A stretch of DNA of 64,000 bases from a virus (Duplodnaviria; Heunggongvirae; Uroviricota; Caudoviricetes): the IMG/VR virus record IMGVR_UViG_3300044557_000151, positions 59,723 to 123,722 of that record. One strand, given 5' to 3'. Shown piece by piece: positions 16,781 to 63,589 of the stretch. A program made the position numbers and the translations under genes. Under the pieces are notes generated by a model, which saw only the letters and a program-made list of their open reading frames with translations, was not told the origin of the DNA and searched no databases. Within the stretch, counting starts at the first letter, position 1; each line of letters starts with the position of its first letter.

Positions 16781-16798
16781 TGAATTGCATTCGCTTTT

Positions 16799-17344: not shown

Positions 17345-17348
17345 GAGT

Positions 17349-18476: not shown

Positions 18477-18564
18477 GGAAAGTTACTCAAGTGGCTGAAG
18501 AGGCGCCCCTGCTAAGGGTGTAGGTCGAGAAATCGGCGCATGGGTTCAAACCCCATACTTTCCA
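18477..18564 (+). tRNA. tRNA-Ser(GCT)
   Basis: Class II tRNA. Acceptor GGAAAGT/ACTTTCC, anticodon loop CTGCTAA, long variable arm, T-arm ATGGG-TTCAAAC-CCCAT. Confidence 0.8.
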
Positions 18565-26579: not shown

Positions 26580-27731
26580 ATGATAAATATTGTTTTAAAA
26601 GGCATTAAACTAAGAATATACCCTAGCAAAGAGCAACAGCTAAGTATAAAGCTTAACTTTGGATATAACCGATTTGTTTGGAATCAGATGCTGGGTATGT
26701 TACAAGAAAGATATGCTAATAACCCTAAGCTATCTTTTCCTAGCGCCTTTACTTTAAATAACTTGTTACCAACAATGAAGATAGAATATTCTTGGCTTAA
26801 CGATGCTGAAAGTCGTAGCTTACAAATAACCTGTAAAAACTTAGTTGATGCTTACAAGAAGTTCTTTAAGACCCATAAGGGGTTTCCTAAGTTTAAATCA
26901 AAGAAGTATCCTAAGCAAAGCTACCAAACAAATTCTACAATAAAGCTAAAGGCCAACGAAGTTAAGTTTCCGAAATTAGGCTATATGAAGTTTAAAGGTA
27001 GTAGCAAAAAACTAAATGAGATTACTAAGATTAAGCTAGGAACTATTAAACTTACACCTACTGGTAAATACTATCTTGTACTGATTGCAGAGTGTGAAAA
27101 CCAAGCACTCCCTAAATCAGGAAATCAAGTAGGTATTGATATGGGGTTAGCTGATTTGATGATTACTAGTGACGGTGTAAAGTATCCTACTTTAAGATTT
27201 GACAAGATACTAGCTAAGAAAAAACGTTACTGGGAAAAGCGTTTAGCTCGTAGACGACTTCAAGCTCAAAAAGAGATTGCTTGGGATAAGCATAATAAGG
27301 TATTAAATCCTAGGGAACTTTCCAACTTTAAAAACTATCAGAAAGCAAAGCTAATGGTTGCTAAGTATTCAGAAAAAATAGCTAACCAGCGTAAAAACTA
27401 CCTTCATATGCTTTCAAAACAGCTTGTATCACAATATGATGTGATTAAGATAGAAGATTTGAAAACCAAGAATCTTCTTAAGAATCATAAGTTATCTAGA
27501 GCAATAGCTAATGCAAGTTGGAAAGAACTTAGAAGACAACTAGAGTACAAGTGCTTATGGTATGGGAAACAGTTAGTCACTGTGAACCCTAGAAAAACCT
27601 CACAAATATGTTCTAGTTGTGGCTATGATGACGGTAAGCATACCTTAGATATTAGAGAGTGGACATGTCCCAAGTGTGGTGTTCACCACGACAGGGACAT
27701 TAACGCGGCTATCAATATCTTAAATGCTTAA
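26580..27731 (+). CDS. tnpB: TnpB RNA-guided endonuclease
   Basis: N-terminal KLRIYPSKEQ...FGYNRFVWNQ. RuvC-I GIDMG and RuvC-II IEDLKTK. C-terminal CSSCG...CPKCG zinc finger followed by RuvC-III DRDINAAINIL. Confidence 0.9.
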   Translation: MINIVLKGIKLRIYPSKEQQLSIKLNFGYNRFVWNQMLGMLQERYANNPKLSFPSAFTLNNLLPTMKIEYSWLNDAESRSLQITCKNLVDAYKKFFKTHKGFPKFKSKKYPKQSYQTNSTIKLKANEVKFPKLGYMKFKGSSKKLNEITKIKLGTIKLTPTGKYYLVLIAECENQALPKSGNQVGIDMGLADLMITSDGVKYPTLRFDKILAKKKRYWEKRLARRRLQAQKEIAWDKHNKVLNPRELSNFKNYQKAKLMVAKYSEKIANQRKNYLHMLSKQLVSQYDVIKIEDLKTKNLLKNHKLSRAIANASWKELRRQLEYKCLWYGKQLVTVNPRKTSQICSSCGYDDGKHTLDIREWTCPKCGVHHDRDINAAINILNA

Positions 27732-29311: not shown

Positions 29312-30448
29312 GTGGATACCTATCAAGCATACAAAGTCCGTATCTATCCCACTCAATTACAAGCTGATATGATTATGCAATTTATCGGAAATAGTCGATT
29401 CGTGTATAACCAAATGCTTGCCATGCAGGCTGATCGTTACAAGAACGGCGGAAGGTACGTTGGATACATGGCAATGTCCAACCTAGTCAAACCACTCAAA
29501 CAAGAGTACGCATTCCTCAAGCTGTCACCATCTCAATCGCTACAACAGGCGTGTGCGGATTTGAACGCCGCTTTCCAGAACTTCTTTGCTAAGCGCGCAG
29601 ACTATCCACGGTTCCACTCCCGAAAAGGTGCGAAGCAATCTATGCGGGTCATGCAGGCTTGTTCCATCATCGCTTCGGGAGTCAAGCTGCCAAAGCTCGG
29701 TATCATGCGTTTCCGTTATGGATATAGTCTCGACCCGTCACTTAAAATTCGGCAAGTGACCGTCTCGTACACCTCATCTCACAAGTTTTACGCCAGCATC
29801 TTAGTTAAATGCGAAAAACAAGCATTGTCTAAAACTGGTGAACAAGTGGGATTGGATATGGGCGTGGCTGACTTAGCTATCCAGAGCAATGGCAAGAAAA
29901 TTCCAACTCAGAAGCATGACGAGCTGGAACACTCTCTTCACATTTGGCAACGTAAGTTGGCTCGCCGTAGGGAGTTAGCCAAGGCGGAAATCGCTAAATC
30001 CAAGCACTATGACCACACTGAATTGACGCTTGATGACTTCTCCAATTACAACAAGGCGAAAATAATGGTTGCTAAGTTGCATGAGAAGATTGCTAACAGG
30101 CGGAAGGATTACCTACACAAGACGACAACCAAATTGGTGCGGGAATATGACCTTATCGCTATGGAAGATTTGAGGACCAAGAATATGGTCAAGAATCACC
30201 ATTTGGCGAAGTCAATTACCAATCAAGGCTGGAACATGTTTAAAACCATGCTTCAGTACAAGTGCGAGTGGTATGGGAAGACAATAGTGGTGGTAAACCC
30301 GCGGAATACCAGTCGCGTATGTTCTGATTGTGGTGTGGATAGCGGCAAGAAACCACTAGATGTGCGGGAATGGACGTGTCCAGGATGTGGTACATGGCAT
30401 GATCGTGATGTGAATGCAGCACAAAACATTTTGAAATTAGCAGTGTAA
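29312..30448 (+). CDS. tnpB: TnpB RNA-guided endonuclease
   Basis: KVRIYPTQLQ...GNSRFVYNQ. RuvC-I GLDMG, RuvC-II MEDLRTK. Zinc finger CSDCG...CPGCG. RuvC-III DRDVNAAQNIL. Confidence 0.9.
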   Translation: MDTYQAYKVRIYPTQLQADMIMQFIGNSRFVYNQMLAMQADRYKNGGRYVGYMAMSNLVKPLKQEYAFLKLSPSQSLQQACADLNAAFQNFFAKRADYPRFHSRKGAKQSMRVMQACSIIASGVKLPKLGIMRFRYGYSLDPSLKIRQVTVSYTSSHKFYASILVKCEKQALSKTGEQVGLDMGVADLAIQSNGKKIPTQKHDELEHSLHIWQRKLARRRELAKAEIAKSKHYDHTELTLDDFSNYNKAKIMVAKLHEKIANRRKDYLHKTTTKLVREYDLIAMEDLRTKNMVKNHHLAKSITNQGWNMFKTMLQYKCEWYGKTIVVVNPRNTSRVCSDCGVDSGKKPLDVREWTCPGCGTWHDRDVNAAQNILKLAV

Positions 30449-30616: not shown

Positions 30617-30808
30617 GAAGTAGACGGTTACGTCATCTCATGGAATAACGAAAAGGGACGGTAGATAATGAAATTTGAACCATATCAACATGTACAACGT
30701 ATGGGCGTTGACGAAGTAGACGGTTACGTCATCTCATGGAATAACGAAAAGGGACGGTAGATAATGAAATTTGAACCATATCAACATGTACAACGTATGG
30801 GCGTTGAC
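30617..30808 (+). repeat. perfect 96-bp tandem duplication spanning RBS and start of the RNA ligase gene
   Basis: 30617..30712 equals 30713..30808 exactly. A 12-bp junction GAAGTAGACGGT recurs at 30809. Copy 1 creates a decoy 30-codon ORF (30668..30760). Confidence 0.9.
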
Positions 30809-31696
30809 GAAGTAGACGGTATCCTGGATGGTAATGTTGTCATTCAACCGAAGATTGATGGAACAAACGCATCAATCTGGTTAGACCAAAATGGAACCTT
30901 GGGATTTGGAAGTCGTCGGCGAAAGCTGACTTTAGAAAAGGACAACGCGGGGTTCATGACCTTCTTCACCTCTGAAATGGCTCAAGGCGACGCCGCCAAA
31001 TTACAAGAGTATCTCGAAGATAACCCAGATTACACCATTTACGGCGAATGGTTAGTCCAACATGTCGTTCATTACAAAGATAACGTTTACCATCAACTGT
31101 TCATTTTCGACGTCTACGACAATGCGAATGAACGATATCTCAACATCGAAGAATATCAAGATGACCTTCAAGAGTTGGGCATGTCGTATGTGGTTGTGAT
31201 CCCGGCGATTTACAAAGGTAAAGCAACAAACGAGATGATTGTAAAGCTCGCTAAGGATAACCACTATCTTCTGGAAAAAGACCAGGTCGGTGAAGGCGTT
31301 GTAGTTAAACGATATGACTTCGTGAATCGATATGGGCGTACCACTTGGGGTAAATACGTGCTTGCAGATTTCAAGAAGCGCAAACATGATGGACGTAATT
31401 ACTCTCAGGATGTTGATGGTATTGGGAACAGTTATGCAGAACCTATTGCTAAATTCATTACACCAGCGTTTGTCGAAAAAGAGTTCATTAAGTTTAAAGA
31501 GCGATTGGATCACCCGTTTAGTGGAAAAGATATTCCGGCATTGCTAGGGACCGTGTATCACGAATTTGTTTCAGAAGAGACGTGGCATTTCTTGAAAGAA
31601 CTTGGGAAGAGTCCGGTTGTCAACTTTGGAACTGTACAGCGCGAATCGTACAAACAAATTAAGCGGTGTTTGCCTGTCTTATTCGGCCAAGCATAG
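30764..31696 (+). CDS. ATP-dependent RNA ligase-like nucleotidyltransferase
   Basis: Motif I KIDGTNA (ligase/capping-enzyme lysine adenylyltransferase). 310 aa. RtcB lies nearby. Confidence 0.5.
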   Translation: MKFEPYQHVQRMGVDEVDGILDGNVVIQPKIDGTNASIWLDQNGTLGFGSRRRKLTLEKDNAGFMTFFTSEMAQGDAAKLQEYLEDNPDYTIYGEWLVQHVVHYKDNVYHQLFIFDVYDNANERYLNIEEYQDDLQELGMSYVVVIPAIYKGKATNEMIVKLAKDNHYLLEKDQVGEGVVVKRYDFVNRYGRTTWGKYVLADFKKRKHDGRNYSQDVDGIGNSYAEPIAKFITPAFVEKEFIKFKERLDHPFSGKDIPALLGTVYHEFVSEETWHFLKELGKSPVVNFGTVQRESYKQIKRCLPVLFGQA

Positions 31697-32412: not shown

Positions 32413-33603
32413 TTGGAAATCAAAGGTAAATACGGCGTTGCAAAAGTAATGACCGAGAATATTGAGCAAACCGCTCAAGAACAGTTGAAAACGTTACTGG
32501 ATCAGCCATACATGAAGGGCAACGATGTTCGAATCATGCCGGATGTTCACGCTGGTAAAGGCGCAACAATTGGCACTAGCATCAAGTTAAACAACGACTT
32601 CATTTGCCCAAATACGGTTTCGGTCGACCTGGGCTGTGGAATGCACGTATTCAAGCTTGACATCGATCATGTAGACTTTGAAAAGTTGGATCAGTTAATC
32701 AATAACGAAGTACCATCTGGTTTCAACGTTTACGAAAATCCGATTCGTAAATTCAGACAAATCAATTATACTCGCATTACTCATCTGAAAAACTACGATC
32801 ACATCTTGAACAGTATTGGAACTCTTGGTGGTGGGAACCATTTCATTGAAATCGATCAGGATACCGATGGTGTTTACTACCTGGTAATTCATTCAGGCTC
32901 ACGCAACTTGGGCGTTCAAGTTGCCAACTATTATCAACGCTTAGCAATTTCGAATCAGTCAAAGAATGTTGAGTTACGCGACGCTGTGATTGCAGCATGT
33001 AAAGAGGTTGGACAAGAGCGTCAGATTGAGGGTTTGTTGAATACGTTGAAACAAACGAATCCAATCATTCCAGACGAGTTGGCTCCTGTCAGCGGCCAAG
33101 ATGCTGAAGACTACTTATACGACGTATCGATTGCACAAGAGTTTGCAGCGTTGAATCGTTTGACGATGGCCGAAACAATTATCTACGGCATGAATTGGCA
33201 AGTTGATTCAGACTTTGATTCAATTCACAACTACATTGATATCGATAATCGAATTATTCGCAAAGGTGCTACCGATGCCTCGTTGGGGAAACAATTGGTT
33301 ATCCCATTGAATATGCGTGATGGCTCGATTATTGCAACTGGCATGGGTAACTCTGACTGGAACTACTCAGCTCCACATGGTGCAGGTCGCGTAATGTCTC
33401 GCAAGAAGGCGTTTGAAACAGTTGCCATGAACGACTTTACCAAATCGATGGAAGGTATCTACTCGACTTCTGTTGTCAAAGAAACGATTGATGAATCACC
33501 GTTCGCATACAAGCCTGCACAAGAGATTATTGATGCAATCAGTGAGAAGACTGTCCACATCGATAAGGTGATTAAACCGGTTTACAACTACAAGGCACAT
33601 TAA
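32413..33603 (+). CDS. rtcB: RtcB-family RNA 3'-phosphate ligase
   Basis: MPDVHAGKGATIG, GGGNHFIEID and APHGAGR motifs. Start uncertain: TTG at 32413 or ATG at 32449. Confidence 0.85.
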   Translation: MEIKGKYGVAKVMTENIEQTAQEQLKTLLDQPYMKGNDVRIMPDVHAGKGATIGTSIKLNNDFICPNTVSVDLGCGMHVFKLDIDHVDFEKLDQLINNEVPSGFNVYENPIRKFRQINYTRITHLKNYDHILNSIGTLGGGNHFIEIDQDTDGVYYLVIHSGSRNLGVQVANYYQRLAISNQSKNVELRDAVIAACKEVGQERQIEGLLNTLKQTNPIIPDELAPVSGQDAEDYLYDVSIAQEFAALNRLTMAETIIYGMNWQVDSDFDSIHNYIDIDNRIIRKGATDASLGKQLVIPLNMRDGSIIATGMGNSDWNYSAPHGAGRVMSRKKAFETVAMNDFTKSMEGIYSTSVVKETIDESPFAYKPAQEIIDAISEKTVHIDKVIKPVYNYKAH

Positions 33604-41041: not shown

Positions 41042-41620
41042 ATGAGCTTTTATATTATTGAAGACGAAGACGGCAACACCATGGATTATAACGGATATTT
41101 TAATTTCCCAATTAGCCAAACGGAGTTGTTCGATGAACCAAATGAGCCAGCTAAATTTGCAGAGGAATTAGGCGGCCACGTAGTCGAGCTAGTCGAGGAG
41201 CAAAAAGTCAAGTTACCGCAAGATGTATGCGAAGAGCTCGACGACTGGATGGCTGATAACCAAGATAGGTTGGTTGGCCGCATTGGTGAATTGATCTTCG
41301 ACATGATGACCCACGAACCTAAATTAACTAATGTATTTTGTTTTGTTGGTGATAGTGAAGAAAACTATTTCAAGATTATTGATGCTTACCGGTATGGTTG
41401 GGAAGCAGAACCGGAAGCTAAGTGGTATGTAAAAACGCCGGAAGCTTGGGAAAGCGAAGACGGTGATTTTGGCTGGCTATATAAGTCGATCTACGGAGGG
41501 ATAGACACCACTAGCCACTTCGATGGTGAAGAAAACGAGCAGTTCACCCGTGCTGAGATCAAGCAGTATCACCTAGATAGCGACATCTTTACACTGGTGC
41601 CAGTGGAGGAAGAAAAATGA
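41042..41620 (+). CDS. acidic hypothetical protein
   Basis: ORF track 192 aa. RBS AGAGGAGG upstream. Confidence 0.45.
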   Translation: MSFYIIEDEDGNTMDYNGYFNFPISQTELFDEPNEPAKFAEELGGHVVELVEEQKVKLPQDVCEELDDWMADNQDRLVGRIGELIFDMMTHEPKLTNVFCFVGDSEENYFKIIDAYRYGWEAEPEAKWYVKTPEAWESEDGDFGWLYKSIYGGIDTTSHFDGEENEQFTRAEIKQYHLDSDIFTLVPVEEEK

Positions 41621-41768
41621 ATGATGCCAAACGATTTCAAGTTTGCGACGAAGAAGAAGTAATGGCTGACTTCGCCACCAAGGAAGGAGCCTTTGTATAT
41701 ATCGAGTCTTATGACCGTTTTAATACCATGTACGTTTACGACACCGAAAAGGATGAGGTGATTTTTAA

Positions 41769-42329
41769 ATGAGCTTATGGGCAGTTAAAGATGCAGACGG
41801 CTGGTTCTGGGACTTCACCGATGAGGGTTTTTACGAAGAAAATGATACTCGAACGGCTGGCATTCCGAACCGAGATTATGCTAACCAAATCGCAAAGGAA
41901 CACAATGGGACACTTACTGAGTATGTGCAGAAGTCCGCACCGATCGTGGTGAGCCAAGAGGAAGCGGAGATGCTGGAGCGGGCGAAGAGTGGACATTTAT
42001 GGGCCACCAATGTGATACAAAATTACATCGATATGCACATGGATGGCATGTCAAATGATGAAAAACAACAATTTGAAGACCGCCTCATGCGCGCCTACGT
42101 CATCGGCTACACCGTGGCAAAGGAGACGCTGTACAACGTCAAGGTGCCACATTCAACTGATGGCTATTACTGGCGTGGAATTAGTGGACAGGTACACACA
42201 TACACTGAGCCTGACCAGCATGCTCATGTTTTGAAAACCGAAGCGTATGTTTGGGCACAAGAACAAATTAATGATGCTGGCTTGCAGGGCTGCGAGAAAG
42301 TGGAGGTGACTGACGATGAAAATGATTAA
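41769..42329 (+). CDS. hypothetical protein (paralog A of a two-member family)
   Basis: Shares VSQEEAEMLERAKSG and EDRLMRAYVIGYTVAKE with the 42694 protein. Confidence 0.5.
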   Translation: MSLWAVKDADGWFWDFTDEGFYEENDTRTAGIPNRDYANQIAKEHNGTLTEYVQKSAPIVVSQEEAEMLERAKSGHLWATNVIQNYIDMHMDGMSNDEKQQFEDRLMRAYVIGYTVAKETLYNVKVPHSTDGYYWRGISGQVHTYTEPDQHAHVLKTEAYVWAQEQINDAGLQGCEKVEVTDDEND

Positions 42330-42534
42330 GCTAGAAAACGGTAATTTGATAAATCTATCGGCAGTGTCATATATCTCAAAAACTGAAATGGTGGCTTATT
42401 TCAAAAAGCCGGTTATCAAAAGTGAAGGTGACTTTCAAACATATAAATGCTATGGCGTTGGTGTAACAGAAGCCGACATTGAACGAATCGCAGCGAGTAC
42501 GGTGAACAAAGAGGTAAAACGAGATGAAAATTGA
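42316..42534 (+). CDS. hypothetical protein
   Basis: ORF track 72 aa. Confidence 0.35.
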   Translation: MKMIKLENGNLINLSAVSYISKTEMVAYFKKPVIKSEGDFQTYKCYGVGVTEADIERIAASTVNKEVKRDEN

Positions 42535-42693
42535 TCTCATTGAACAATGGATTCATAGCCAGGCAAAATCTGTATATGACATCAAAAGTCGTCAAGCGTG
42601 GGTCAAGGCTATGCGGATCGCCGGACTTGATGAACAGACTATCATGCGTGTGTATGAAATTCGGTTCGAGAAGCAGTTTGTGGAGGTAAAACA

Positions 42694-43230
42694 ATGAGCT
42701 TATACATTATTGAAGATAGATATGGAGCATTACTAGATTCATCTGTAAATTACAATTATGCCAAGTCATTACAACATAGAAATTACCCCGACGGACACGT
42801 GGTTGAGATGGTGCCAGCAAAGCCTAAGGTTAAAGTCAGTCAGGAAGAAGCGGAGATGCTGGAAAAAGCTAAGCACAATCCTACGTTACGGCCGTCATTT
42901 TTGATTACGGAATATTCAAATAGCCACAAAGGCTACATATTAGGCAACGACCTTGAAGATCGACTCATGTGTGCCTACGTAATTGGCTGGACCGTGGGGG
43001 AGAAGCCTAAGCGCTACGTCCTACCGATGCCTGGCACTGAATATCGCAGCAAGCTGATGCACGGAAACGCTCAATATTACGCAATCAAAGGAACTGGAAA
43101 CTGGCGGCCTGACGCAATTGCTTTAGGCACTGACGATGCCGTCAAACACGGATACACCGTCACCAAGTCAGAAATCGACACCGCGCCTGATTGGGTTAAG
43201 GGTATTACGCCAATCGAGGTGACGGAATGA
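42694..43230 (+). CDS. hypothetical protein (paralog B)
   Basis: VSQEEAEMLEKAKHN and EDRLMCAYVIGWTVGEKP. Confidence 0.5.
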   Translation: MSLYIIEDRYGALLDSSVNYNYAKSLQHRNYPDGHVVEMVPAKPKVKVSQEEAEMLEKAKHNPTLRPSFLITEYSNSHKGYILGNDLEDRLMCAYVIGWTVGEKPKRYVLPMPGTEYRSKLMHGNAQYYAIKGTGNWRPDAIALGTDDAVKHGYTVTKSEIDTAPDWVKGITPIEVTE

Positions 43231-47218: not shown

Positions 47219-48037
47219 ATGCGTAAATTCAAAGGTTTATTATATGGACTGATCGCATTACTGGTCGTATCTGGCGTTGGTGTCGGGGTCGAAACGACTA
47301 TTTCGCCGGCAACGCCCGTTGTAGCATATGGAGGGCATTCGTCTGGAGGACACAGTTCTGGCGGGCACGCGTCCACGTCACATGCCTCAACTGCACACAC
47401 GAGTACGTCTCACGCATCAATTTCTCACTCGTCTGGGACAATGGCACGATCGACAAGCCCAGCAAGTCGATTTGGCGGTTCGACAAGCAGTCATGGTGGA
47501 TTCAGTAGTTCTCCAGCTACGCGGTTTGGCGGCTCGAGTTCAACGACCAAGAGTGCAATTAGCAAGTCGCCAGCAACACGATTTAACAGTACTCCATCTC
47601 GGACATACTCAAGCTCATTCACCAAGAATCCAGCAACACGGGCCAAGGTGTACAACAGTTCGGCAAATAAGAGTTTGGGAACTACGCGAAGCGCTTTAGG
47701 ATTGAATAGCTCGACTCGAACTTACACTAGTTATTTCCATAATCCATATAGTCATTCGTATTATCGACACGGGAGTTTCTATAATACCTACTACCCATAT
47801 TGGATTTGGAATTCAAACCTGACGCGTTCGCAACACGACATTTTGGTAACTCAGGGCATCGATCACGATCAACTTATGAAGTCCAAAACAAAGATTAAAC
47901 ACATCATGATTCGCGACTCGAAAGGGAATAAGAAGAGTGTGATCGTAACACCGCAACAGTATAAGGCAATCAAGGCTGGAGACAAGATTAAGATTCAGGC
48001 TGGATTGCTATATGTGAATGGCGAGGTAGTCAAATGA
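47219..48037 (+). CDS. secreted Ser/Thr/His-rich repeat protein
   Basis: Signal peptide. GGHSSGGHSSGGHASTSHASTAHTSTSHAS tract. Four SPATRF(G/N) repeats. Structured C-terminal domain. Confidence 0.5.
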   Translation: MRKFKGLLYGLIALLVVSGVGVGVETTISPATPVVAYGGHSSGGHSSGGHASTSHASTAHTSTSHASISHSSGTMARSTSPASRFGGSTSSHGGFSSSPATRFGGSSSTTKSAISKSPATRFNSTPSRTYSSSFTKNPATRAKVYNSSANKSLGTTRSALGLNSSTRTYTSYFHNPYSHSYYRHGSFYNTYYPYWIWNSNLTRSQHDILVTQGIDHDQLMKSKTKIKHIMIRDSKGNKKSVIVTPQQYKAIKAGDKIKIQAGLLYVNGEVVK

Positions 48038-48818: not shown

Positions 48819-48947
48819 AAGGGAGATTTTATGAAGGATCAGATTTTTGACGCAACAAGCATTAAGGTCAATCCACTAGACGGATACGTAGTAACTGTTA
48901 AGGGAGAGCCACTACACATTTTAGGAGACGTGAAAATTATGAAACAA

Positions 48948-49415
48948 AACACGGTATATATGGCGGAATCTTGGTTTAATGATGAACAAAACGCATTACG
49001 TGAGGCCGGTATGGAGGCGATGAAGCAAAACCAAACAATTGACTGGGAAAACAGCTTCCGCCCAATTGAACATCAATACAAGGGTTGGAAGATTACAGAT
49101 CATCCCGACATGCTCAATAATTCCGAATGGCAGTTAGCGACATTTCGTTCAGACTGTCATTCTGTTGAGGCAATGGACATCACGATTGCGTTGTACGATC
49201 CGAAGATTGAGAACTCAGATCCTGGCGTTTTGTGGGAACTCGGCTATGCTTATGGCTTAAACAAACCAACATTTTTGGTGTTGCCAGATGATTGTGATAC
49301 TCCATTAAACCTAATGCCCGCGTTAGGTGCAACTCGCGTATTACATCTTGCAGACTTGGAGACTTTTGATTTTAACAACAAAGCATTTACAGTATTTACC
49401 GGGGAGGTCTACTAA
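48948..49415 (+). CDS. nucleoside 2-deoxyribosyltransferase
   Basis: YMAESWF...ENSFRPIEHQYKGWKITDHP...WELGYAYGLNKPTFLVLPDD...NLMPALG...FDFNNKAFTVFTGEVY aligns end to end with Lactobacillus NDT. ATG 48948 after GGAGACG. The alternative start at 48831 adds 39 aa. Confidence 0.8.
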   Translation, partial: NTVYMAESWFNDEQNALREAGMEAMKQNQTIDWENSFRPIEHQYKGWKITDHPDMLNNSEWQLATFRSDCHSVEAMDITIALYDPKIENSDPGVLWELGYAYGLNKPTFLVLPDDCDTPLNLMPALGATRVLHLADLETFDFNNKAFTVFTGEVY

Positions 49416-49417
49416 TT

Positions 49418-49900
49418 ATGCAACAACGAAATGTAATGTTATCAGCATCATGGTTCTCACCAGAGGAAGCCGAATTCCTCGAAAAGGTGAAAGCCTCACT
49501 TCATGCCAACGAAACGATTTCAGATTTCAGTTGGTGTTTGGATAAAGATGGACAGTGGGGAGAGACGGATGTTACTCTGCATCCTGAAGTCGCGAGTGAT
49601 TTGTTGTGGCGCTCTCGTACCTTCCTCAATGATGTAACATCTGTAAAAAACGCAGAAGTAATTGTGCTTATGATGGTTCCTGGTCACGAAGATACCGGAG
49701 CAGTTTCCGAGGCAAGTATGGCTTACGCTTGGGGTAAACCCGTAGTCATGGTCCTGCCAGACGCTGATTATGATAACAAGACCACCCCAATTAACTTAAT
49801 GCCATCCATGTTGGCTGACGTCGTAATCCCATATCGTGAACTCGCCACATATAACTTCGGTCACTTACGCAATCGTCCTTACGACGGTCCTTGCTTCTAG
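49418..49900 (+). CDS. nucleoside 2-deoxyribosyltransferase paralog
   Basis: SASWFSPEE...VSEASMAYAWGKPVVMVLPDADYDNKTTPINLMPSM preserves the NDT catalytic Glu region and the PINLM motif. Confidence 0.7.
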   Translation: MQQRNVMLSASWFSPEEAEFLEKVKASLHANETISDFSWCLDKDGQWGETDVTLHPEVASDLLWRSRTFLNDVTSVKNAEVIVLMMVPGHEDTGAVSEASMAYAWGKPVVMVLPDADYDNKTTPINLMPSMLADVVIPYRELATYNFGHLRNRPYDGPCF

Positions 49901-49911
49901 GAGGTACTAAC

Positions 49912-50283
49912 ATGGATAACAACGATTCTAACAAGCAACTAGACGAAGACATCGATCAAGCTAAGATCGAATTGCAAGAGAAGGCCAATGAGGTTCTCCC
50001 AAAGTTTGCTATTATGATTGTATCCTTGATCATCTCGCTCGTCATCAATCCAATCATCTGGCGTTGGGGTTTCAACAGCTTCCTTGCTGACGTTTTTAAC
50101 CTTTCTCATATTACGTTCTGGCAAGCATTTGGACTTTCATTGTTCGTAGATTATGCTATTTGGACGCCACTCAAGGAGAACCTAGACCTTGATACTCCAA
50201 CTCAATATAAAATGCTGATTTCATCCATTGGAACAATCATCATTACGGTATTCGGATTTCTACTCGCAGGCTTATTCGTCTAG
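49912..50283 (+). CDS. membrane protein
   Basis: ATG 49912 after AGGAGG. Three hydrophobic helices. Confidence 0.45.
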   Translation: MDNNDSNKQLDEDIDQAKIELQEKANEVLPKFAIMIVSLIISLVINPIIWRWGFNSFLADVFNLSHITFWQAFGLSLFVDYAIWTPLKENLDLDTPTQYKMLISSIGTIIITVFGFLLAGLFV

Positions 50284-50292: not shown

Positions 50293-50460
50293 ATGTACAA
50301 ACTAGTTTTATATAACGATATTGGTATTGAGGATATCTATTTTCAAGATTACCAAACGTTCTTTGCGGCTCAGATTCAGGTATTCAAAATCTATTTTGCT
50401 CAACACGTCTGGTATCGGGTGGTCAAGGTGAACCCAAATGCAATTGCCTTTAACTTTTAG
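50293..50460 (+). CDS. hypothetical small protein
   Basis: 55-aa ORF below the track cutoff. ATG after TAGGAGGTTGAC. Confidence 0.3.
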   Translation: MYKLVLYNDIGIEDIYFQDYQTFFAAQIQVFKIYFAQHVWYRVVKVNPNAIAFNF

Positions 50461-50461: not shown

Positions 50462-50558
50462 TAGACAAACACTAATGTGTTTAGTATACTAATCAGTGTG
50501 ATATAGACAAACACTAATGTGTTTTGGCTGACGTGAAATCACGCCAGTCTTTTTGTTT
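50462..50558 (+). promoter_or_regulatory. promoter-operator unit with leader hairpin and intrinsic terminator
   Basis: TAGACA-N17-TATACT at 50462..50490. Second TAGACAAACACTAATGTGTTTT at 50503..50524. Terminator GGCTGACGTG-AAAT-CACGCCAGTC + TTTTTGTTT at 50526..50558. Confidence 0.55.
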
Positions 50559-54462: not shown

Positions 54463-54575
54463 TTTTATCATGTGCAGGAAAGAAGACACGTTCTTTAAAG
54501 GACGTGATGAATTGCCTTCTTTTTAGCGCCAAAGGCGCTACACATGGTACGAAATCGTGTGGTATAATAAGCTAT

Positions 54576-55019
54576 ATGAAAGACACTAATAGACTTACGT
54601 ATGGTAGAACTTCTGTCTACAATCTAAATTACCACATCATCTGGGGAACTAAATACCGTAACCGGGTTCTGAAAGGAAATGTTGAGGTTACGCTCAAGCA
54701 AATTATGTATGAAATCGCAGAGCAATATGGTTTTAGCATCGACCACATGGAAATTGGTCAGGATGACCATATTCACTTGCTGGTGAGTGCACCGCCAAAA
54801 CTATCAGTTACCAATATTGTGCGATGGCTAAAAGGCATTTCAGCGCGCCAGCTATTCGTCGCGTGTCCGGAGCTACAGCGAAGTTACTGGAAACATGCAG
54901 GACGCCACTTATGGTCGCCCAGTTATTACGTAGAAAGTATTGGCACAACTAATCAGAATGCAGTCGCTAAGTACATTGATGACCAAAGGTTGAAGGAGGT
55001 GAAGATTAATGACAATTAA
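54576..55019 (+). CDS. tnpA: IS200-like Y1 (HUH) transposase TnpA
   Basis: YHIIWGTKYR and HIHLLVSAPP (HuH) motifs plus a downstream Tyr. ATG 54576 (track frame from 54504). Confidence 0.85.
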   Translation: MKDTNRLTYGRTSVYNLNYHIIWGTKYRNRVLKGNVEVTLKQIMYEIAEQYGFSIDHMEIGQDDHIHLLVSAPPKLSVTNIVRWLKGISARQLFVACPELQRSYWKHAGRHLWSPSYYVESIGTTNQNAVAKYIDDQRLKEVKINDN

Positions 55020-56148
55020 AGCTTATAAACTTAGGATCTACCCAAATGAGGCTCAAAAGCTTCAAATGGAAAAGAACTTTGGTATGTGTCGATTTGTATG
55101 GAACCAGCTTCTCGCTATGCAGAATGCGCGCTACAAGAACGGTGGTGACTACGTCAACGAGTTTGGCATGAATTACCTATTTAAGCCCCTGAAAAAAGAA
55201 TACCAATGGCTTAAAGAAGCAGACTCAACCAGCTTAATAGCTGTGAGCCACAATCTGCACTTAGCATTTAAAAACTTTTTCAAAAAGCATGAAGGGTATC
55301 CGAAGTTTAAGACTAAGCGGTTCACCCGCCCTGCATATCGTTCTAACGCAGTTAACCACAATATCGTTCTTATGGACGAGCAACATATTCGGCTGCCAAA
55401 ACTTGGATCAATAGCATTTCGATCTGGACAGTTACCAAGGGGTAAAGTTAAAACTGCAACAGTTACTAGAAGTCCCGCTGGTAAATACTATGTACTTGTG
55501 ACTACGGAAGTCGAAATAGAGAAATGGAACCCAACAGGCGCTAGTGTCGGCTTGGATATGGGAGTCGCTGACCTTGTAATCACTAGTGATGGTATGAAGT
55601 TTGCGACCAAACGGTTTGATAAAGCTCTTGCCAAAAAGAAACACTACTGGGAGAAACGATTGGCCCGTAGGCGCGCCTTAGCTCAAAAAGAAATTGCCTG
55701 GGATAAACACCTCAAGGTAGAATCGCCACGTCAGTTATCTGACTTCAAGAATTACATGAAGGCTAAAGAAATGGTGGCGAAATACAGTGAAAAAGTGTCT
55801 AATCAACGTCACGATTACCTTCAAAAGATCAGTACTGAGCTCGTTTCAGAATATGATGTGATTAAATTAGAAGACCTGAAAACCAAGGGCCTGATGAAGA
55901 ATCACAAACTGTCACGAGCAATTGCAAATCAGTCGTGGCGTGAATTACGTCTGATGTTGGAATACAAAGCAGCTTGGTATGGTAAGAGTATCATTGCCGT
56001 GTCTCCGTATAAGACCTCACAACGTTGTTCAGTATGTGGCTACGATGATGGCAAACATGAGCTAGATATCCGCGAATGGACTTGCCCACAATGCCATACT
56101 CATCACGATCGTGACATAAATGCCGCAAAGAACATTCTAGTCGCATAA
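55009..56148 (+). CDS. tnpB: TnpB RNA-guided endonuclease
   Basis: KLRIYPNEAQ...FGMCRFVWNQ. RuvC-I GLDMG, RuvC-II LEDLKTK. Zinc finger CSVCG...CPQCH. RuvC-III DRDINAAKNIL. Confidence 0.9.
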   Translation: MTIKAYKLRIYPNEAQKLQMEKNFGMCRFVWNQLLAMQNARYKNGGDYVNEFGMNYLFKPLKKEYQWLKEADSTSLIAVSHNLHLAFKNFFKKHEGYPKFKTKRFTRPAYRSNAVNHNIVLMDEQHIRLPKLGSIAFRSGQLPRGKVKTATVTRSPAGKYYVLVTTEVEIEKWNPTGASVGLDMGVADLVITSDGMKFATKRFDKALAKKKHYWEKRLARRRALAQKEIAWDKHLKVESPRQLSDFKNYMKAKEMVAKYSEKVSNQRHDYLQKISTELVSEYDVIKLEDLKTKGLMKNHKLSRAIANQSWRELRLMLEYKAAWYGKSIIAVSPYKTSQRCSVCGYDDGKHELDIREWTCPQCHTHHDRDINAAKNILVA

Positions 56149-56287: not shown

Positions 56288-56298
56288 GAATTCAATAG

Positions 56299-60566: not shown

Positions 60567-61331
60567 ATGAACAACTTGGAAAACACTAACACAACTAAAT
60601 TTACTGGTACTTATTTTCAATGGATCAAGCATCAATTAACCGGATGGGACACTTTCCCATGGGCATTGTGGGGATTCGGTATCGGATTTGAATTAGCCCT
60701 GCTGCTCACCAATAAGATTACACCATTAGCTATCATTTCATTCATCGGCGTATTCTTCGGTATGTGGTGTACAGTCGCAATGTCGTCAGGCGGTACTGAC
60801 GCTAACGGTAATCGAGTAATCTCTCACTCGATTAATGGATTGTTGGGCGCAATCAGTGTAATCGCCTATGTCTATGTTAACTGGACCGCAGGGCACTGGT
60901 TCAGTGTCCTGGATCAATTTGCCTACTTCTTCTTAATCGATTTTGGTTTGATGATTAACTGGCGCACATGGGGACATGGCGAAAACGGCGGCAAGATGAA
61001 TGAACTCTCCAAAAAAGGCTGGGCAATCGTTACTGCTATTATCCTGATTGGTTGGTTTGCCTTCTACCATCTTGGCGTAGTATTAAACGACAGTAATCCA
61101 ATTTGGGATTCCCTCACGTTCGCTATTGGCGCTACGGCAAGCTGGTTGTGCTTCAAGCGTTACACATCGACATACACATTATGGATTTGTTCAAATATTG
61201 TAAATTTGGTTCTTTGGTTTACTGCCCTGCAAGCAGGGTATAGTCAATCAGCACTCGTTATGCTTGTTATGAACGTATTCTATATGGCTACTGCGATCTA
61301 CGGTAAGTTTGTGTGGAAGGTGGAAAAGTAG
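60567..61331 (+). CDS. pnuC: PnuC-family nucleoside/NMN transporter
   Basis: 254 aa, about 7 TM helices, Trp-rich. NWTAGHWFSVLDQF and the loop layout are typical of PnuC. Confidence 0.6.
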   Translation: MNNLENTNTTKFTGTYFQWIKHQLTGWDTFPWALWGFGIGFELALLLTNKITPLAIISFIGVFFGMWCTVAMSSGGTDANGNRVISHSINGLLGAISVIAYVYVNWTAGHWFSVLDQFAYFFLIDFGLMINWRTWGHGENGGKMNELSKKGWAIVTAIILIGWFAFYHLGVVLNDSNPIWDSLTFAIGATASWLCFKRYTSTYTLWICSNIVNLVLWFTALQAGYSQSALVMLVMNVFYMATAIYGKFVWKVEK

Positions 61332-62780: not shown

Positions 62781-62857
62781 GACCCTTATCGACAATGAGA
62801 CCTCGCGTCCGAGTGGGTGGAATGCCCATACATAATCAATGAAAGTGACGGTACAAT

Positions 62858-63589
62858 ATCATTCTGTACATTTTAGGATCAATTGGCGCTGGCAAGACAA
62901 GCCTAACCGATTTATTAGCAAAAGACCTACAAACTACCGCATACTATGAAGACATTAGTGGAAATGGCATGATTGGGAGTATGCTTGAAAAATTCTACGA
63001 ATCAGGGATTGACTCAAGAAAGCGCACGGGTGCGATGCTCCAGATCGCCTTCTTAACATTCCGTTACCAGCAATTAAAACGAGCAATTGTTGAACGTAAC
63101 GCTATTCTGGATTCTAGCCTCGAATCCGATTTTGTAATGGCAAAACAGTTGCATGACAACGGCGAAATTGATGATGTGGACTATAACATCTATACTACCT
63201 TATCACAAGAAATGCAGGCTAACGTGAATGGTATGCCATGGAGCGGATATCCAGATCTCGCCATCTACTTAAAGATTGATCCGGAGAAGGAAATCGAGGA
63301 GATTCAAGGACGTGGCCGCGAAATGGAAGATATCCGCAAAGACCCTGAATTGGTTGATTACTATCATCGCGTCAACAAAGCTTATCGCGAATGGTCTAAA
63401 GGTTATACTCGTGGAATTATGCTGACGATTGATCGTGATAAATACGATTTCGTTAATAATCTCGACGATCGCAACACTGTCCTAAATCAAATCGAACATA
63501 AACTTGTTGATCTCGGCAAGTTGTCCCCCGAAGAGTTTGACGCGATTCGTGCTCGCCGTGAACCATTAACTCGCGGTTTGCCGTTCTAA
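62858..63589 (+). CDS. deoxynucleoside kinase (dAK/dGK family), probable ATC/ATT start
   Basis: P-loop ILGSIGAGKTSL at 62870..62905 lies in frame upstream of the first ATG (62969), with no ATG/GTG/TTG after the in-frame stop at 62846. The C-terminus IQGRGREMEDIRKDPELVDYY...DRDKYDFVNNLDDRN aligns with Lactobacillus dAK/dGK. Confidence 0.75.
   Translation: MILYILGSIGAGKTSLTDLLAKDLQTTAYYEDISGNGMIGSMLEKFYESGIDSRKRTGAMLQIAFLTFRYQQLKRAIVERNAILDSSLESDFVMAKQLHDNGEIDDVDYNIYTTLSQEMQANVNGMPWSGYPDLAIYLKIDPEKEIEEIQGRGREMEDIRKDPELVDYYHRVNKAYREWSKGYTRGIMLTIDRDKYDFVNNLDDRNTVLNQIEHKLVDLGKLSPEEFDAIRARREPLTRGLPF

What the first reader, a model, noticed from the sequence alone, without database searches (positions are those of the whole stretch)
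48831..49900. Two tandem nucleoside 2-deoxyribosyltransferase genes in a phage-like genome
Both ORFs align along their whole length with Lactobacillus NDT (catalytic Glu region xELGYA/MAYAWGKP and the PINLM motif). Tandem PTD/NTD pairs are a lactobacillus hallmark. Carrying both, alongside tdk (25819), a deoxynucleoside kinase (62858) and a PnuC-type importer (60567), gives the element a complete base and deoxynucleoside salvage route feeding dNTP pools. NDTs also accept modified bases, so they could supply non-canonical deoxynucleosides for DNA modification.
Basis: partly seen in the sequence, partly recalled or inferred. Interest (0 to 1): 0.65.

Follow-up and report, generated by a model that had tools for sequence, protein, structure and literature searches.

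The report
Phage deoxyribosyltransferase pair, one atypical
A large, undescribed phage of lactic acid bacteria carries two back-to-back genes for nucleoside deoxyribosyltransferase, a base-swapping salvage enzyme; the first is ordinary, and the second belongs to a rare phage-only branch whose active site naturally has the two changes that enzyme engineers introduce to alter sugar preference.

Summary
ORF1 (48831..49415, 194 aa) and ORF2 (49418..49900, 160 aa) are adjacent, translationally coupled genes. Both pass Pfam PF05014 and align end to end with L. leichmannii NDT.

- They are not a class I/class II (PTD/NTD) pair: both resemble class II.
- No tandem pair was found in the 15 nearest bacterial loci or in 50,697 deposited phage genomes.
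- tdk, a deoxynucleoside kinase and PnuC are in the window but 11–23 kb away. Related phages place NDT directly beside them, and phage Lb338-1 already shows kinase–NDT–PnuC, so the salvage idea is sound but known.
- No base-modification gene was found among the ~50 ORFs scanned.

ORF1 is a canonical NDT, 51–61% identical to Lacticaseibacillus enzymes. ORF2 is 31% identical to ORF1 and under purifying selection. It belongs to a small phage/metagenome-only subfamily (12 sequences from this window and 11 contigs). This subfamily keeps the nucleophile Glu98 and Gln46, Asp72, Asp92 and Asn123, but replaces the triad Tyr7 with Met/Phe and always has Ser9. The engineered CtNDT Y7F-A9S carries the same two changes.

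Most likely the pair has complementary specificities feeding the phage kinases. This is a new variant of a known kind, of moderate interest.

The parts
48820..48825 (+). Shine-Dalgarno AGGGAG, 5 nt upstream of the ORF1 ATG
   Evidence: Read directly from the sequence.
48831..49415 (+). ORF1: canonical class-II-type nucleoside 2'-deoxyribosyltransferase, 194 aa. Residues 1-36 are a lineage-specific N-terminal extension, and the NDT core starts at Met37 (48939). Key residues are Tyr43, Ala45, Phe49, Gln82, Asp108, Asp130, Glu136 (codon 49236..49238), Asn160 and the C-terminal Tyr194.
   Evidence: PF05014 at 65.1 bits. 1f8x E=1.2e-33 over residues 38-194. Residue mapping. 51-61% identical to Lacticaseibacillus NDTs. 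dN/dS 0.07 against L001. The 194-aa form is also called in P0006 and L001.
49401..49407 (+). Shine-Dalgarno GGGGAGG for ORF2, lying inside the last codons of ORF1. The ORF1 stop TAA is at 49413..49415 and the ORF2 ATG at 49418, an arrangement typical of translational coupling.
   Evidence: Read directly from the sequence.
49418..49900 (+). ORF2: divergent NDT paralog of the [Met/Phe]7-Ser9 subfamily, 160 aa. Residues are Met7 (49436..49438) in place of the triad Tyr, Ser9 (49442..49444), Phe13, Gln46, Asp72, Asp92, nucleophile Glu98 (49709..49711), Asn126 and the C-terminal Phe160.
   Evidence: PF05014 at 47.9 bits. 1f8x E=2.4e-19 over the full length. AF2 model pLDDT 89.7, with TM 0.92-0.94 and rmsd 1.3 A to LlNDT. 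31% identical to ORF1. dN/dS 0.078-0.099. Subfamily residue pattern.
49899..50283 (+). Next gene in the same tightly packed run. The SD AGGAGG (49899..49904) overlaps the ORF2 stop, and the ATG is at 49912. It encodes a 123-aa predicted membrane protein. It is followed by a 55-aa ORF at 50293..50460.
   Evidence: phrog_2169 'membrane protein', E=3.7e-12. The sequence is shown. The same 121-123-aa and 55-aa genes follow the ORF2 ortholog in L002, L003 and L007.
50462..50490 (+). Repeated promoter-like element (TAGACA-17-TATACT) carrying the palindrome AAACACTAATGTGTTT. It marks the end of the gene run that contains the NDT pair and the start of the next unit.
   Evidence: Best promoter match in the region, 10 of 12. 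Five copies in the window align well.
25819..26400 (+). Thymidine kinase (tdk). Predicted consumer of the thymidine and deoxyuridine made by the NDT reaction.
   Evidence: PF00265 E=4.8e-43. NCBIfam NF003300 at 238.6 bits against a cutoff of 195.
60567..61331 (+). PnuC-family transporter. The substrate is either nicotinamide riboside or, as predicted for Lactobacillus PnuN, deoxynucleosides.
   Evidence: PF04973 E=2e-24. TIGR01528 at 106.9 bits against 42.45. PnuN prediction quoted in PMC7749635.
62858..63589 (+). Deoxynucleoside kinase. The P-loop GSIGAGKTS is encoded from 62876, upstream of the first canonical start (ATG 62969). The probable start is non-canonical: ATC 62858 or ATT 62861.
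   Evidence: PF01712 E=4.7e-21. Frame analysis. The L030 ortholog (84% aa identity) has the same feature.

Best explanation
ORF1 and ORF2 are a co-transcribed, translationally coupled pair of class-II-type nucleoside 2'-deoxyribosyltransferases in a large, undescribed phage. The host is probably a member of the Lactobacillaceae, possibly Lacticaseibacillus.

Shown:
- Both proteins have the NDT fold or sequence, the nucleophile Glu, and the residues that hold the 3'/5'-hydroxyls and the base (Gln46, Asp72, Asp92, Asn123, and a C-terminal residue at the position whose carboxylate completes the neighbouring subunit's site).
- Both keep Phe13, Asp92 and Asn123. These are three of the five positions changed in 4hx9, the engineered LlNDT whose PDB title is 'Designed Phosphodeoxyribosyltransferase'.
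- Both are under strong purifying selection.

Inferred mechanism: each enzyme forms a covalent deoxyribosyl-Glu intermediate and swaps the base (dN + N' <-> dN' + N). This rebalances deoxynucleosides, whether released from host DNA or imported through the PnuC-family transporter, into the species that the phage thymidine kinase and deoxynucleoside kinase phosphorylate for dNTP supply.

ORF1 is the standard enzyme, with a complete Tyr-Asp-Glu triad and host-like ancestry. ORF2 belongs to a deep, phage/metagenome-restricted subfamily in which the triad Tyr7 is Met or Phe and position 9 is always Ser.

Inferred by analogy with the engineered CtNDT Y7F-A9S: Ser9 takes over the positioning of the catalytic Glu, so ORF2 remains active but has a reshaped sugar pocket. 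Its donor preference, and possibly its base preference, would then differ from ORF1's. The pair would therefore cover a wider substrate range than either enzyme alone.
For: Family membership and catalytic residues.

Structure: the ORF2 model has pLDDT 89.7 and TM 0.92-0.94 to LlNDT.

Nucleoside rather than nucleotide substrates: PDB 4hx9 differs from LlNDT at F13R, E91Q, D92G, V93T and N123S. Both ORFs keep F13, D92 and N123.

Purifying selection: dN/dS is 0.070 for the ORF1 core (dS 0.85) and 0.078 for ORF2 (dS 1.48) against L001, and 0.099 for ORF2 against L002.

Coupling: a 2-nt gap, with the SD inside the end of ORF1.

The pair is conserved in L001 and in L007. In L007, ORF1 is 83% identical and ORF2 is 47% identical at the amino acid level.

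Links to salvage genes:
- An ORF2-type gene overlaps the 3' end of a dNK in L030, and that dNK is 84% identical to the window's dNK. An ORF2-type gene also directly follows a dNK in L004.
- It is followed by PnuC in L008/L032.
- It is followed in L031 by a gene that looks RNR-like by eye.
- It lies two genes from a NUDIX gene in L006.
- In Lb338-1 a canonical NDT (Tyr7, Ala9) occupies the same dGK-coupled slot and is followed by PnuC.
- Single ORF1-type genes sit beside TK, dNK or PnuC in L025 and L028.

Tyr7/Ser9 pattern: in the 100-sequence family alignment all 9 ORF2-type sequences have [M/F]7 + S9, and the 3 found later (L030-L032) have it too. None of the 88 Tyr7 sequences in that alignment has Ser9.

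Literature: CtNDT Y7F has higher efficiency with ribonucleosides. In Y7F-A9S, Ser9 lies 2.5 A from the catalytic Glu, and kcat/KM for inosine rises 8-fold. BpNDT Y5F gains ribonucleoside use (PMC12645435).
Against: No enzyme assay exists for any ORF2-type protein.

Removing the Tyr is not always benign. DmtZ Y6A lost both of its activities (PMC12884076), and LlNDT Y7F/D72N was worse than wild type (PMC11647913). Met at position 7, as in the window's ORF2, has not been studied in any NDT.

The equivalence of position 9 in ORF2 and in CtNDT rests on gap-free alignment of the beta-1 motif to LlNDT and LhPDT. It was not measured in coordinates.

In this window, tdk, dNK and PnuC are 11-23 kb from the pair, so the link to them is by pathway logic and by the gene order in relatives.

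The PnuC passes NCBI's equivalog model for the nicotinamide riboside transporter. It may therefore import NR rather than deoxynucleosides.

The host is unknown.
Confidence: 0.6

Rival explanations
1. Obligate hetero-oligomer. NDT active sites are completed by the neighbouring subunit. Under this reading ORF1 and ORF2 co-assemble into a mixed hexamer, and ORF2 (lacking the triad Tyr) is mainly a structural or specificity-modulating partner that lends its C-terminus and loops to ORF1's sites.
For: The genes are translationally coupled and adjacent in the window, L001 and L007. ORF2 lacks Tyr7. In CtNDT, some active-site residues come from a neighbouring subunit (PMC12645435). Variable mosaic segments cover the C-terminal halves of both genes.
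Against: ORF2-type genes occur without an adjacent ORF1-type gene in L004, L006, L030, L031 and L008/L032. In L004 and L030 they take the slot that a single canonical NDT holds in Lb338-1. ORF2 keeps its own nucleophile and every sugar and base ligand under purifying selection, which a purely structural subunit would not need. ORF1-type genes are usually single.
Confidence: 0.15
2. ORF2 is a hydrolase or a ribo- or 3'-deoxy-directed enzyme rather than a deoxynucleoside base-swapper. Loss of the Tyr7 hydroxyl together with Ser9 would redirect it to ribonucleosides, nicotinamide riboside or sugar-modified nucleosides. Its purpose could be to destroy or convert a specific nucleoside, for example a host-made antiviral analogue, or NR brought in by PnuC.
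For: The natural [M/F]7-S9 pattern matches the engineered CtNDT Y7F-A9S, which gains ribonucleoside and 3'-deoxynucleoside activity and shows up to 23% hydrolysis of 3'-deoxyadenosine (PMC12645435). PnuC follows the ORF2-type gene in L008/L032. A NUDIX gene lies near it in L006.
Against: The closest genomic partner of ORF2-type genes is a deoxynucleoside kinase, in L004 and L030. PnuC also sits next to a canonical Tyr7 NDT in Lb338-1, so PnuC linkage is not specific to the ORF2 type. No antiviral-nucleoside context was found, and there were no PADLOC hits. The equivalent double change did not improve LlNDT.
Confidence: 0.15
3. The pair supplies non-canonical deoxynucleosides for phage DNA modification. 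This would parallel the NDT-family enzymes of Z-genome phages.
For: There is precedent. [quoted passage not shown] NDT-M2 from dZ-phage contigs is a dA-preferring purine NDT (bioRxiv 10.1101/2025.10.22.683976). NDTs in general accept many base analogues.
Against: No PurZ, DatZ, MazZ, DpdA, hydroxymethylase or other modification gene was found among the ~50 ORFs scanned in this window. The polymerase is an ordinary PolIII-alpha type. Both ORFs have the nucleoside-type pocket, not the nucleotide-type pocket. Only 64 kb of the genome is visible.
Confidence: 0.05
4. ORF2 is a decaying or catalytically dead duplicate with no function of its own.
For: The triad Tyr is missing. A Tyr-to-Ala change kills DmtZ.
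Against: dN/dS is 0.08-0.10. In the alignment of the first 9 ORF2-type sequences (A7), 33 columns are invariant, including Glu98, Asp72, Asp92, Asn126, Gln46 and Ser9, despite divergence down to 37% identity. The ORF is intact in all 12 sequences. The gene is not a recent duplicate of ORF1, being only 31% identical to it.
Confidence: 0.05

Closest known systems
Class II nucleoside 2'-deoxyribosyltransferase of Lactobacillus leichmannii (LlNDT-2; PDB 1f8x, 9ezk)
   Same: Both ORFs align over the full 157 residues, at 39% (ORF1) and 30% (ORF2) identity. They share the fold (ORF2 model TM 0.92-0.94) and the residues Glu98, Asp72, Asp92, Asn123, Gln46 and Phe13. Both end exactly at the position of the C-terminal residue of LlNDT.
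   Different: ORF1 has a 36-residue N-terminal extension and a 2-residue insertion before Asp92. ORF2 has Met7 instead of Tyr7, Ser9 instead of Gly9, EASMAYA instead of ELGYAL after the nucleophile, an invariant His90, and a 3-residue insertion before Asn123.
Engineered CtNDT Y7F-A9S (PDB 9emx) and BpNDT Y5F (PMC12645435)
   Same: They carry the same pair of changes relative to the family norm: the triad Tyr replaced by a residue without a hydroxyl, and a Ser two positions later. In the engineered enzyme, Ser9 contacts the catalytic Glu. The natural ORF2-type subfamily has [M/F]7 + S9 in 12 of 12 sequences.
   Different: Those are laboratory mutants of distant homologues, about 20% identical to ORF2 with TM about 0.65. 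The window's ORF2 has Met rather than Phe. No activity data exist for the natural subfamily.
dGK - NDT - endonuclease - PnuC module of Lactobacillus phage Lb338-1 (Herelleviridae; FJ822135, gp73-gp70)
   Same: It is a Lactobacillaceae phage carrying an NDT with a deoxynucleoside kinase and a PnuC-family transporter, interrupted by a nuclease gene. The same gene set is present in this window. ORF2-type genes occupy the kinase-coupled slot in L004 and L030.
   Different: Lb338-1 has one canonical NDT (Tyr7, Ala9) and the genes are contiguous. Here there are two NDTs, and the kinases and transporter are 11-23 kb away. The window's phage is unrelated at the DNA level, and its polymerase is at most 37% identical to any deposited phage's.
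L. helveticus Ptd (class I, PDB 1s2d) plus Ntd (class II)
   Same: One genome carries two NDT-family paralogs that presumably differ in specificity (PMC2764106).
   Different: Neither window ORF is class I-like. No evidence was found that the L. helveticus genes are tandem. The nearest bacterial loci have a single NDT.
Phage NDT-superfamily enzymes of Z-genome phages (DmtZ; NDT-M2)
   Same: They are phage-encoded NDT-family proteins that reshape purine (deoxy)nucleoside or nucleotide pools.
   Different: DmtZ acts on dAMP and resembles DNPH1. It keeps the triad Tyr and sits beside PurZ and DutZ genes. No Z-pathway gene was found here, and both ORFs have the nucleoside-type pocket.

Membership tests
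Nucleoside 2'-deoxyribosyltransferase family (Pfam PF05014) | Score above the Pfam gathering threshold across the whole domain | tested here: met
   ORF1 scores 65.1 bits and ORF2 47.9 bits against a gathering score of 28.8. Profile coverage is 1-114 and 3-117 of 117 positions.
Nucleoside 2'-deoxyribosyltransferase family (Pfam PF05014) | Catalytic nucleophile Glu (Glu98 in LlNDT) | tested here: met
   ORF1 has Glu136 and ORF2 has Glu98. The column is invariant in all alignments.
Nucleoside 2'-deoxyribosyltransferase family (Pfam PF05014) | Triad Tyr (Tyr7 in LlNDT) that positions the Glu | tested here: not met
   The feature is met for ORF1 (Tyr43). It is not met for ORF2, which has Met7. All 12 ORF2-type sequences have Met or Phe at this position. 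ORF2 is therefore filed as an atypical member, not a canonical one.
Nucleoside 2'-deoxyribosyltransferase family (Pfam PF05014) | Triad Asp (Asp72), and Asp92 and Asn123, which bind the sugar hydroxyls | tested here: met
   ORF1 has Asp108, Asp130 and Asn160. ORF2 has Asp72, Asp92 and Asn126. All three columns are invariant across both clades.
Nucleoside 2'-deoxyribosyltransferase family (Pfam PF05014) | Flavodoxin-like NDT fold | tested here: met
   The ORF2 AlphaFold2 model has pLDDT 89.7 and pTM 0.85. The top PDB matches are LlNDT structures, at TM 0.92-0.94 and rmsd 1.3 A. ORF1 was not modelled, but it aligns to 1f8x end to end at E=1e-33.
Nucleoside 2'-deoxyribosyltransferase family (Pfam PF05014) | Measured transglycosylation activity through a covalent deoxyribosyl-enzyme intermediate | not testable with these tools
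   This needs purified protein and an HPLC or LC-MS assay.
Class II NDT (purine and pyrimidine; LlNDT-like) as opposed to class I PDT | Closer in sequence and structure to class II than to class I, and Gln46 present | tested here: met
   ORF1 scores 119.5 bits against 1f8x and 24.9 bits against 1s2d. ORF2 scores 72.9 and 40.6 bits. The ORF2 model gives TM 0.92 against class II and 0.78 against class I. Gln82 and Gln46 are present. The ORF2 loop 41-50 is the least confident part of the model, with pLDDT 57. Actual base range was not tested.
Class I purine deoxyribosyltransferase (PTD/PDT) | Best match to LhPDT-type sequences and structures | tested here: not met
   See the row above. Neither ORF is PDT-like, so this is not a PTD/NTD pair.
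dNMP/NMP N-glycosidases and phosphodeoxyribosyltransferases of the NDT superfamily (DNPH1/Rcl, DmtZ, designed 4hx9) | A pocket remodelled for a 5'-phosphate. In 4hx9 the changes are F13R, D92G and N123S; in the natural hydrolases the equivalent residues are small or uncharged. | tested here: not met
   The 4hx9 substitutions were read. Both ORFs keep Phe13, Asp92 and Asn123. DNPH1 structures match the ORF2 model only weakly, at TM 0.5-0.56.
Phage deoxynucleoside salvage module (NDT + dNK and/or TK + PnuC-family transporter, as in Lb338-1) | All components encoded by the same phage | tested here: met
   tdk, dNK and PnuC were confirmed in the window. The dNK P-loop is in frame, but only if translation starts at a non-canonical codon.
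Phage deoxynucleoside salvage module (NDT + dNK and/or TK + PnuC-family transporter, as in Lb338-1) | Physical clustering of the components | tested here: not met
   In the window, tdk is 23 kb upstream, and PnuC and dNK are 10.7 and 13 kb downstream. Clustering is seen in relatives: L004, L030, L008/L032, L025, L028 and Lb338-1.
Non-canonical DNA base pathways (Z-genome, 7-deazaguanine, hydroxymethyl-pyrimidine) | Presence of a base-synthesis, modified-dNTP or DNA transglycosylase gene | tested here: inconclusive
   None was found among the ~50 ORFs scanned. Many small ORFs were not scanned, and the rest of the genome is not in the window.

The most novel reading that the evidence does not exclude
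The [Met/Phe]7-Ser9 NDTs (ORF2 type) are a natural, phage-evolved class of nucleoside transglycosylase whose sugar specificity is shifted away from plain 2'-deoxyribose, towards ribo-, 3'-deoxy- or otherwise sugar-modified nucleosides. Nature would then have reached the same two-residue solution that protein engineers found in 2025. The phage pairs this enzyme with a canonical NDT either to draw on nucleoside pools the host enzyme cannot use, or to dispose of a sugar-modified antiviral nucleoside.
Probability: 0.2. Interest if true: 0.65.

Novelty: new variant of a known kind. Interest (0 to 1): 0.4.

Why it matters
NDT genes in phages of lactic acid bacteria, and their association with nucleoside kinases and a PnuC transporter, are already on record. 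The salvage story by itself is therefore ordinary.

The new element is a second, deeply diverged NDT lineage. It was found only in phage-like metagenomic contigs: none turned up in 50,697 deposited phage genomes, in IMG/VR, or among the nearest bacterial loci. This lineage replaces a catalytic-triad residue that the literature describes as conserved in NDT enzymes, and it always pairs that loss with a Ser two positions away.

This coupled change is the one enzyme engineers use to widen NDT sugar scope for nucleoside-drug synthesis. The subfamily is therefore a ready-made set of natural variants to test, for biocatalysis and for the question of how the catalytic Glu is positioned without the Tyr.

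For phage biology it gives a concrete, cheap experiment: compare the substrate range of the two enzymes to learn why a phage keeps two NDTs. The locus is also a clear example of mosaic exchange with breakpoints inside enzyme genes, next to homing endonucleases.

Tried and rejected
- Near-DNA search of the 5-kb locus against deposited phages gave no match, so no annotated close relative could be used.
- Single-protein scans of IMG/VR with ORF1 and ORF2 found nothing useful. The only hit was a 17-residue chance-level match, L005. The profile scan with A7 also found nothing.
- The first genome contigs attempt, with the mixed alignment A1, failed for lack of a conserved stretch. It was rerun with the ORF1-type alignment A4. 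That scan reaches only ORF1-type relatives, so it does not exclude ORF2-type genes in bacterial genomes. The exhaustive representative search returned only P0001 and P0027-P0029 as ORF2-type clusters, and every contig recovered for an ORF2-type protein looks phage-like.
- PTD/NTD reading: rejected on sequence and structure scores.
- Recent duplication of ORF1: rejected. The two are 31% identical, and ORF2 forms its own deep clade in an NJ tree of 99 sequences.
- Pseudogene reading of ORF2: rejected on dN/dS and on the invariant catalytic residues.
- dNMP-glycosidase (DNPH1/DmtZ-like) reading: rejected on the pocket residues.
- Defence or anti-defence link: no PADLOC hits for the pair or its neighbours.
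- Broken dNK (frameshift) reading: considered because ATG 62839 is out of frame with the P-loop. It is less likely, because the L030 ortholog (75% nt identity) also lacks a canonical start but keeps the P-loop in frame.
- Promoter and terminator scan around the pair: nothing above shuffle expectation except the repeated element at 50462.
- Papers on LlNDT G9S and on the designed phosphodeoxyribosyltransferase were not in the library. The 4hx9 substitutions were read from the PDB sequence instead. My recollection that LlNDT G9S permits dideoxynucleoside use is unverified and is not used as evidence.
Full report
OBSERVATION

The window carries two adjacent + strand ORFs exactly at the stated coordinates: ORF1 at 48831..49415 (194 aa) and ORF2 at 49418..49900 (160 aa). 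ORF1's ATG is preceded by AGGGAG. ORF2's ATG lies 2 nt after ORF1's TAA, with GGGGAGG inside the last codons of ORF1. The next gene's AGGAGG overlaps ORF2's stop codon. This layout is typical of translationally coupled genes.

Both proteins exceed the Pfam gathering score for PF05014, at 65.1 and 47.9 bits against 28.8. Both match PHROG 7995, at E=3e-49 and 2.5e-28. Both align end to end with the solved L. leichmannii enzyme 1f8x, at E=1.2e-33 and 2.4e-19.

GENOMIC SETTING

Nearly all sizeable ORFs are on the + strand. The window encodes the following:
- two tyrosine-recombinase-like proteins, a Sak4-like protein, exonucleases, a DnaB-type helicase, a primase, a PolIII-alpha-type polymerase and a RecD2-type helicase;
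- an RNA ligase and RtcB;
- at least four HNH homing endonucleases, and three TnpB copies, one of them with a TnpA;
- a cluster of 7-8 tRNAs with a full-length tmRNA.

There is no near-DNA match to any of 50,697 deposited phage genomes. The polymerase is at most 37% identical to any deposited phage's. This is therefore a large phage of an undescribed lineage.

They lie 23 kb upstream and 10.7-13 kb downstream of the pair, so they do not form a cluster with it.

No base-modification pathway gene was found among the ~50 ORFs scanned.

THE TWO GENES ARE NOT EQUIVALENT

ORF1 has every residue known to matter in LlNDT: Tyr7, Phe13, Gln46, Asp72, Asp92, Glu98, Asn123 and a C-terminal Tyr. It also has a 36-residue N-terminal extension found only in its closest relatives, P0006 and L001. 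Its nearest cellular relatives are all Lacticaseibacillus NDTs, at 51-61% identity. In an NJ tree ORF1 sits in a clade with them.

ORF2 is only 31% identical to ORF1 and 28-34% identical to those bacterial enzymes. It keeps Phe13, Gln46, Asp72, Asp92, Glu98, Asn123 and a C-terminus that ends at the same alignment position. It has Met where the triad Tyr should be.

An AlphaFold2 model of ORF2 (pLDDT 89.7) superposes on LlNDT at TM 0.92-0.94 and 1.3 A. It fits the class I PDT less well, at TM about 0.78. Sequence scores agree for both ORFs. This is therefore not a PTD/NTD pair.

A SMALL, PHAGE-RESTRICTED SUBFAMILY

A word-indexed search of 5.8 billion proteins found only five relatives of ORF2. 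A profile search of all 1.84 billion cluster representatives added only three more clusters that score clearly above the general NDT background. A metagenome scan added three loci.

All 12 sequences have Met or Phe at position 7 and Ser at position 9. In a 100-sequence family alignment, none of the 88 Tyr7 proteins has Ser9. The same column equivalence holds against the class I structure.

No deposited phage genome contains an ORF2-type gene. The best match is 31.6% identity, to the same single-copy genes that ORF1 hits. IMG/VR scans found none either.

ORF2 is not decaying. dN/dS is 0.078 against L001 (dS 1.48) and 0.099 against L002. In the alignment of the first 9 ORF2-type sequences (A7), 33 columns are invariant despite divergence down to 37% identity.

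WHAT THE TYR/SER PATTERN IMPLIES

The literature treats Tyr-Asp/Asn-Glu as the catalytic triad of the NDT superfamily. The Tyr hydroxyl positions the Glu, and Tyr-to-Ala abolished both activities of the phage enzyme DmtZ (PMC12884076).

CtNDT Y7F is more efficient than wild type with ribonucleosides. BpNDT Y5F gains ribonucleoside use. [quoted passage not shown] That variant also handles 3'-deoxynucleosides (PMC12645435). By contrast, LlNDT Y7F/D72N was worse than wild type (PMC11647913).

The natural ORF2-type subfamily thus carries the same coupled change as the engineered double mutant. I infer that Ser9 substitutes for Tyr7 in holding Glu98, and that the enzyme is active with a reshaped sugar pocket. 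This is an inference by analogy, not a measurement.

Both ORFs keep Phe13, Asp92 and Asn123. These positions are changed in 4hx9, the engineered LlNDT titled 'Designed Phosphodeoxyribosyltransferase', which carries F13R, E91Q, D92G, V93T and N123S. Nucleosides, not nucleotides, are therefore the expected substrates.

LINK TO SALVAGE

The pair itself recurs in L001 and L007. In other contigs the ORF2-type gene stands in other contexts:
- It directly follows a deoxynucleoside kinase in L004. In L030 it overlaps the 3' end of a dNK that is 84% identical to the window's dNK.
- It is followed by PnuC in L008/L032.
- It is followed in L031 by a gene that looks RNR-like by eye.
- It lies two genes from a NUDIX gene in L006.

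In the isolated phage Lb338-1 the order is deoxyguanosine kinase, NDT, endonuclease, PnuC, and that NDT is canonical, with Tyr7 and Ala9. Single ORF1-type genes sit beside TK, dNK or PnuC in other phage contigs.

The ORF2 type therefore occupies the same kinase-coupled slot as a canonical NDT. This supports a working deoxynucleoside enzyme and argues against an obligate ORF1-ORF2 heteromer.

A Lactobacillus PnuC-family member, PnuN, has been predicted to carry deoxynucleosides (PMC7749635). The window's transporter, however, also passes NCBI's equivalog model for the nicotinamide riboside transporter. Its substrate is therefore open.

MOSAICISM

Against L001, the window is 98-100% identical from 47405 to 49104. 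Identity drops to 76-81% over the 3' half of ORF1, returns to 97% across the ORF1/ORF2 junction, and falls to 47-86% through the rest of ORF2.

Against L007, the NDT region is 53-76% identical, while the flank from 49951 is 91-100% identical.

L002 and L003 are 96% identical to the window from the first base of ORF2 onward, but they carry an HNH homing endonuclease gene immediately upstream.

The NDT genes are therefore a recombination hot spot with breakpoints inside the coding sequences. Homing-endonuclease-driven co-conversion is a plausible cause, but it is unproven.

Whole-length homology, the catalytic motifs and the presence of tdk, dNK and PnuC are all correct.

'Tandem PTD/NTD pairs are a lactobacillus hallmark' is not supported. 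None of the 15 nearest bacterial loci has a second NDT within 6 kb. The paper consulted states only that L. helveticus has both classes.

The modified-base idea has real precedent in other phages, but nothing in this window supports it.

VERDICT

This is a genuine pair of NDT genes in a phage. The salvage role is the best explanation and is already known for phages of this host group.

The new element is the second paralog: a rare, phage-restricted NDT lineage with a natural [Met/Phe]7-Ser9 active site, here joined to a canonical NDT. I rate this a new variant of a known kind, with interest 0.4. My confidence in the main explanation is 0.6. The main uncertainty is what ORF2 does differently, which only biochemistry can settle.

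Noticed in passing
window 18081..18436 (+), inside the tRNA cluster 15837..18564: The phage carries a full-length tmRNA (Rfam RF00023, 112.9 bits against a gathering score of 47; ARAGORN tag peptide AKQNDLVAA). It sits among 7-8 tRNA genes, one of which ARAGORN reports with an odd anticodon loop (17348..17422).
   Followed up: partly
window ~15755-15818, 26395-26464, 39802-39860, 50462-50540, 56298-56357 (+): A promoter-like element occurs at least five times. It reads TAGACA, a 17-nt spacer, then TATACT or TATAAT. The perfect palindrome AAACACTAATGTGTTT lies within the spacer, and a second copy lies about 20 nt downstream. This looks like a set of promoters controlled by one DNA-binding protein. 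The same element is present in related contigs L002, L003 and L007.
   Followed up: partly
window 62839..62975: The deoxynucleoside kinase has its P-loop (GSIGAGKTS, from 62876) upstream of the first ATG/GTG/TTG in frame (62969). The nearby ATG at 62839 is in another frame. The ortholog in L030 (84% aa identity) shows the same feature, with ATA/ATT codons. This suggests initiation at AUC/AUU/AUA rather than a broken gene.
   Followed up: partly
window 49105..49900 compared with L001, L007, L002 and L003: Mosaic breakpoints fall inside both NDT genes, while the flanks are 97-100% identical. In L002 and L003 an HNH homing endonuclease gene ends 6 nt before the ORF2 ortholog's start codon.
   Followed up: yes
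window 26580..27731, 29312..30448, 54504..56148: There are three TnpB (IS605 OrfB/Cas12f-like) genes in 30 kb of phage DNA, and one of them has an IS200-type TnpA. There are also at least four HNH homing endonuclease genes (16097, 25040, 44921, 61335). The mobile-element load is unusually heavy.
   Followed up: no
window 5448..6509 and 6622..7884: Two adjacent integrase-like (tyrosine recombinase) genes sit in what otherwise looks like a large lytic-type replication module.
   Followed up: no
window 30764..31696 and 32413..33603: An RNA ligase and an RtcB-type tRNA splicing ligase lie close together. This suggests a tRNA repair function, perhaps against host anticodon nucleases.
   Followed up: no
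window 41042..43230: Three paralogous DUF1642 genes (41042, 41769, 42694) lie in a row.
   Followed up: no
window 47219..48037: The product is a 272-aa protein with a signal-like N-terminus and a long Ser/Thr/His-rich repetitive region (repeats such as SPATRFGGS). It has no family match and is conserved in L001. It lies three genes upstream of the NDT pair.
   Followed up: no
L031 151..435, L032 76..351, L008 1..183: A ~92-aa protein directly precedes ORF2-type NDT genes in three contigs. It contains the pattern SYLYYxLDxxI..D..FD....DLV..MKKYPEEF, which by eye resembles the NMN-binding Ia domain of NAD-dependent DNA ligase. This was not tested.
   Followed up: no
L028 2361..3095: A protein with a Cas6 C-terminal domain hit (PF01881) is encoded in a phage-like contig between the PgpA and TK-NDT genes.
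   Followed up: no
L006 1523..2642: Two paralogous genes of unknown function (185 and 186 aa) lie immediately upstream of, and overlap, an ORF2-type NDT. Neither has any family match.
   Followed up: no
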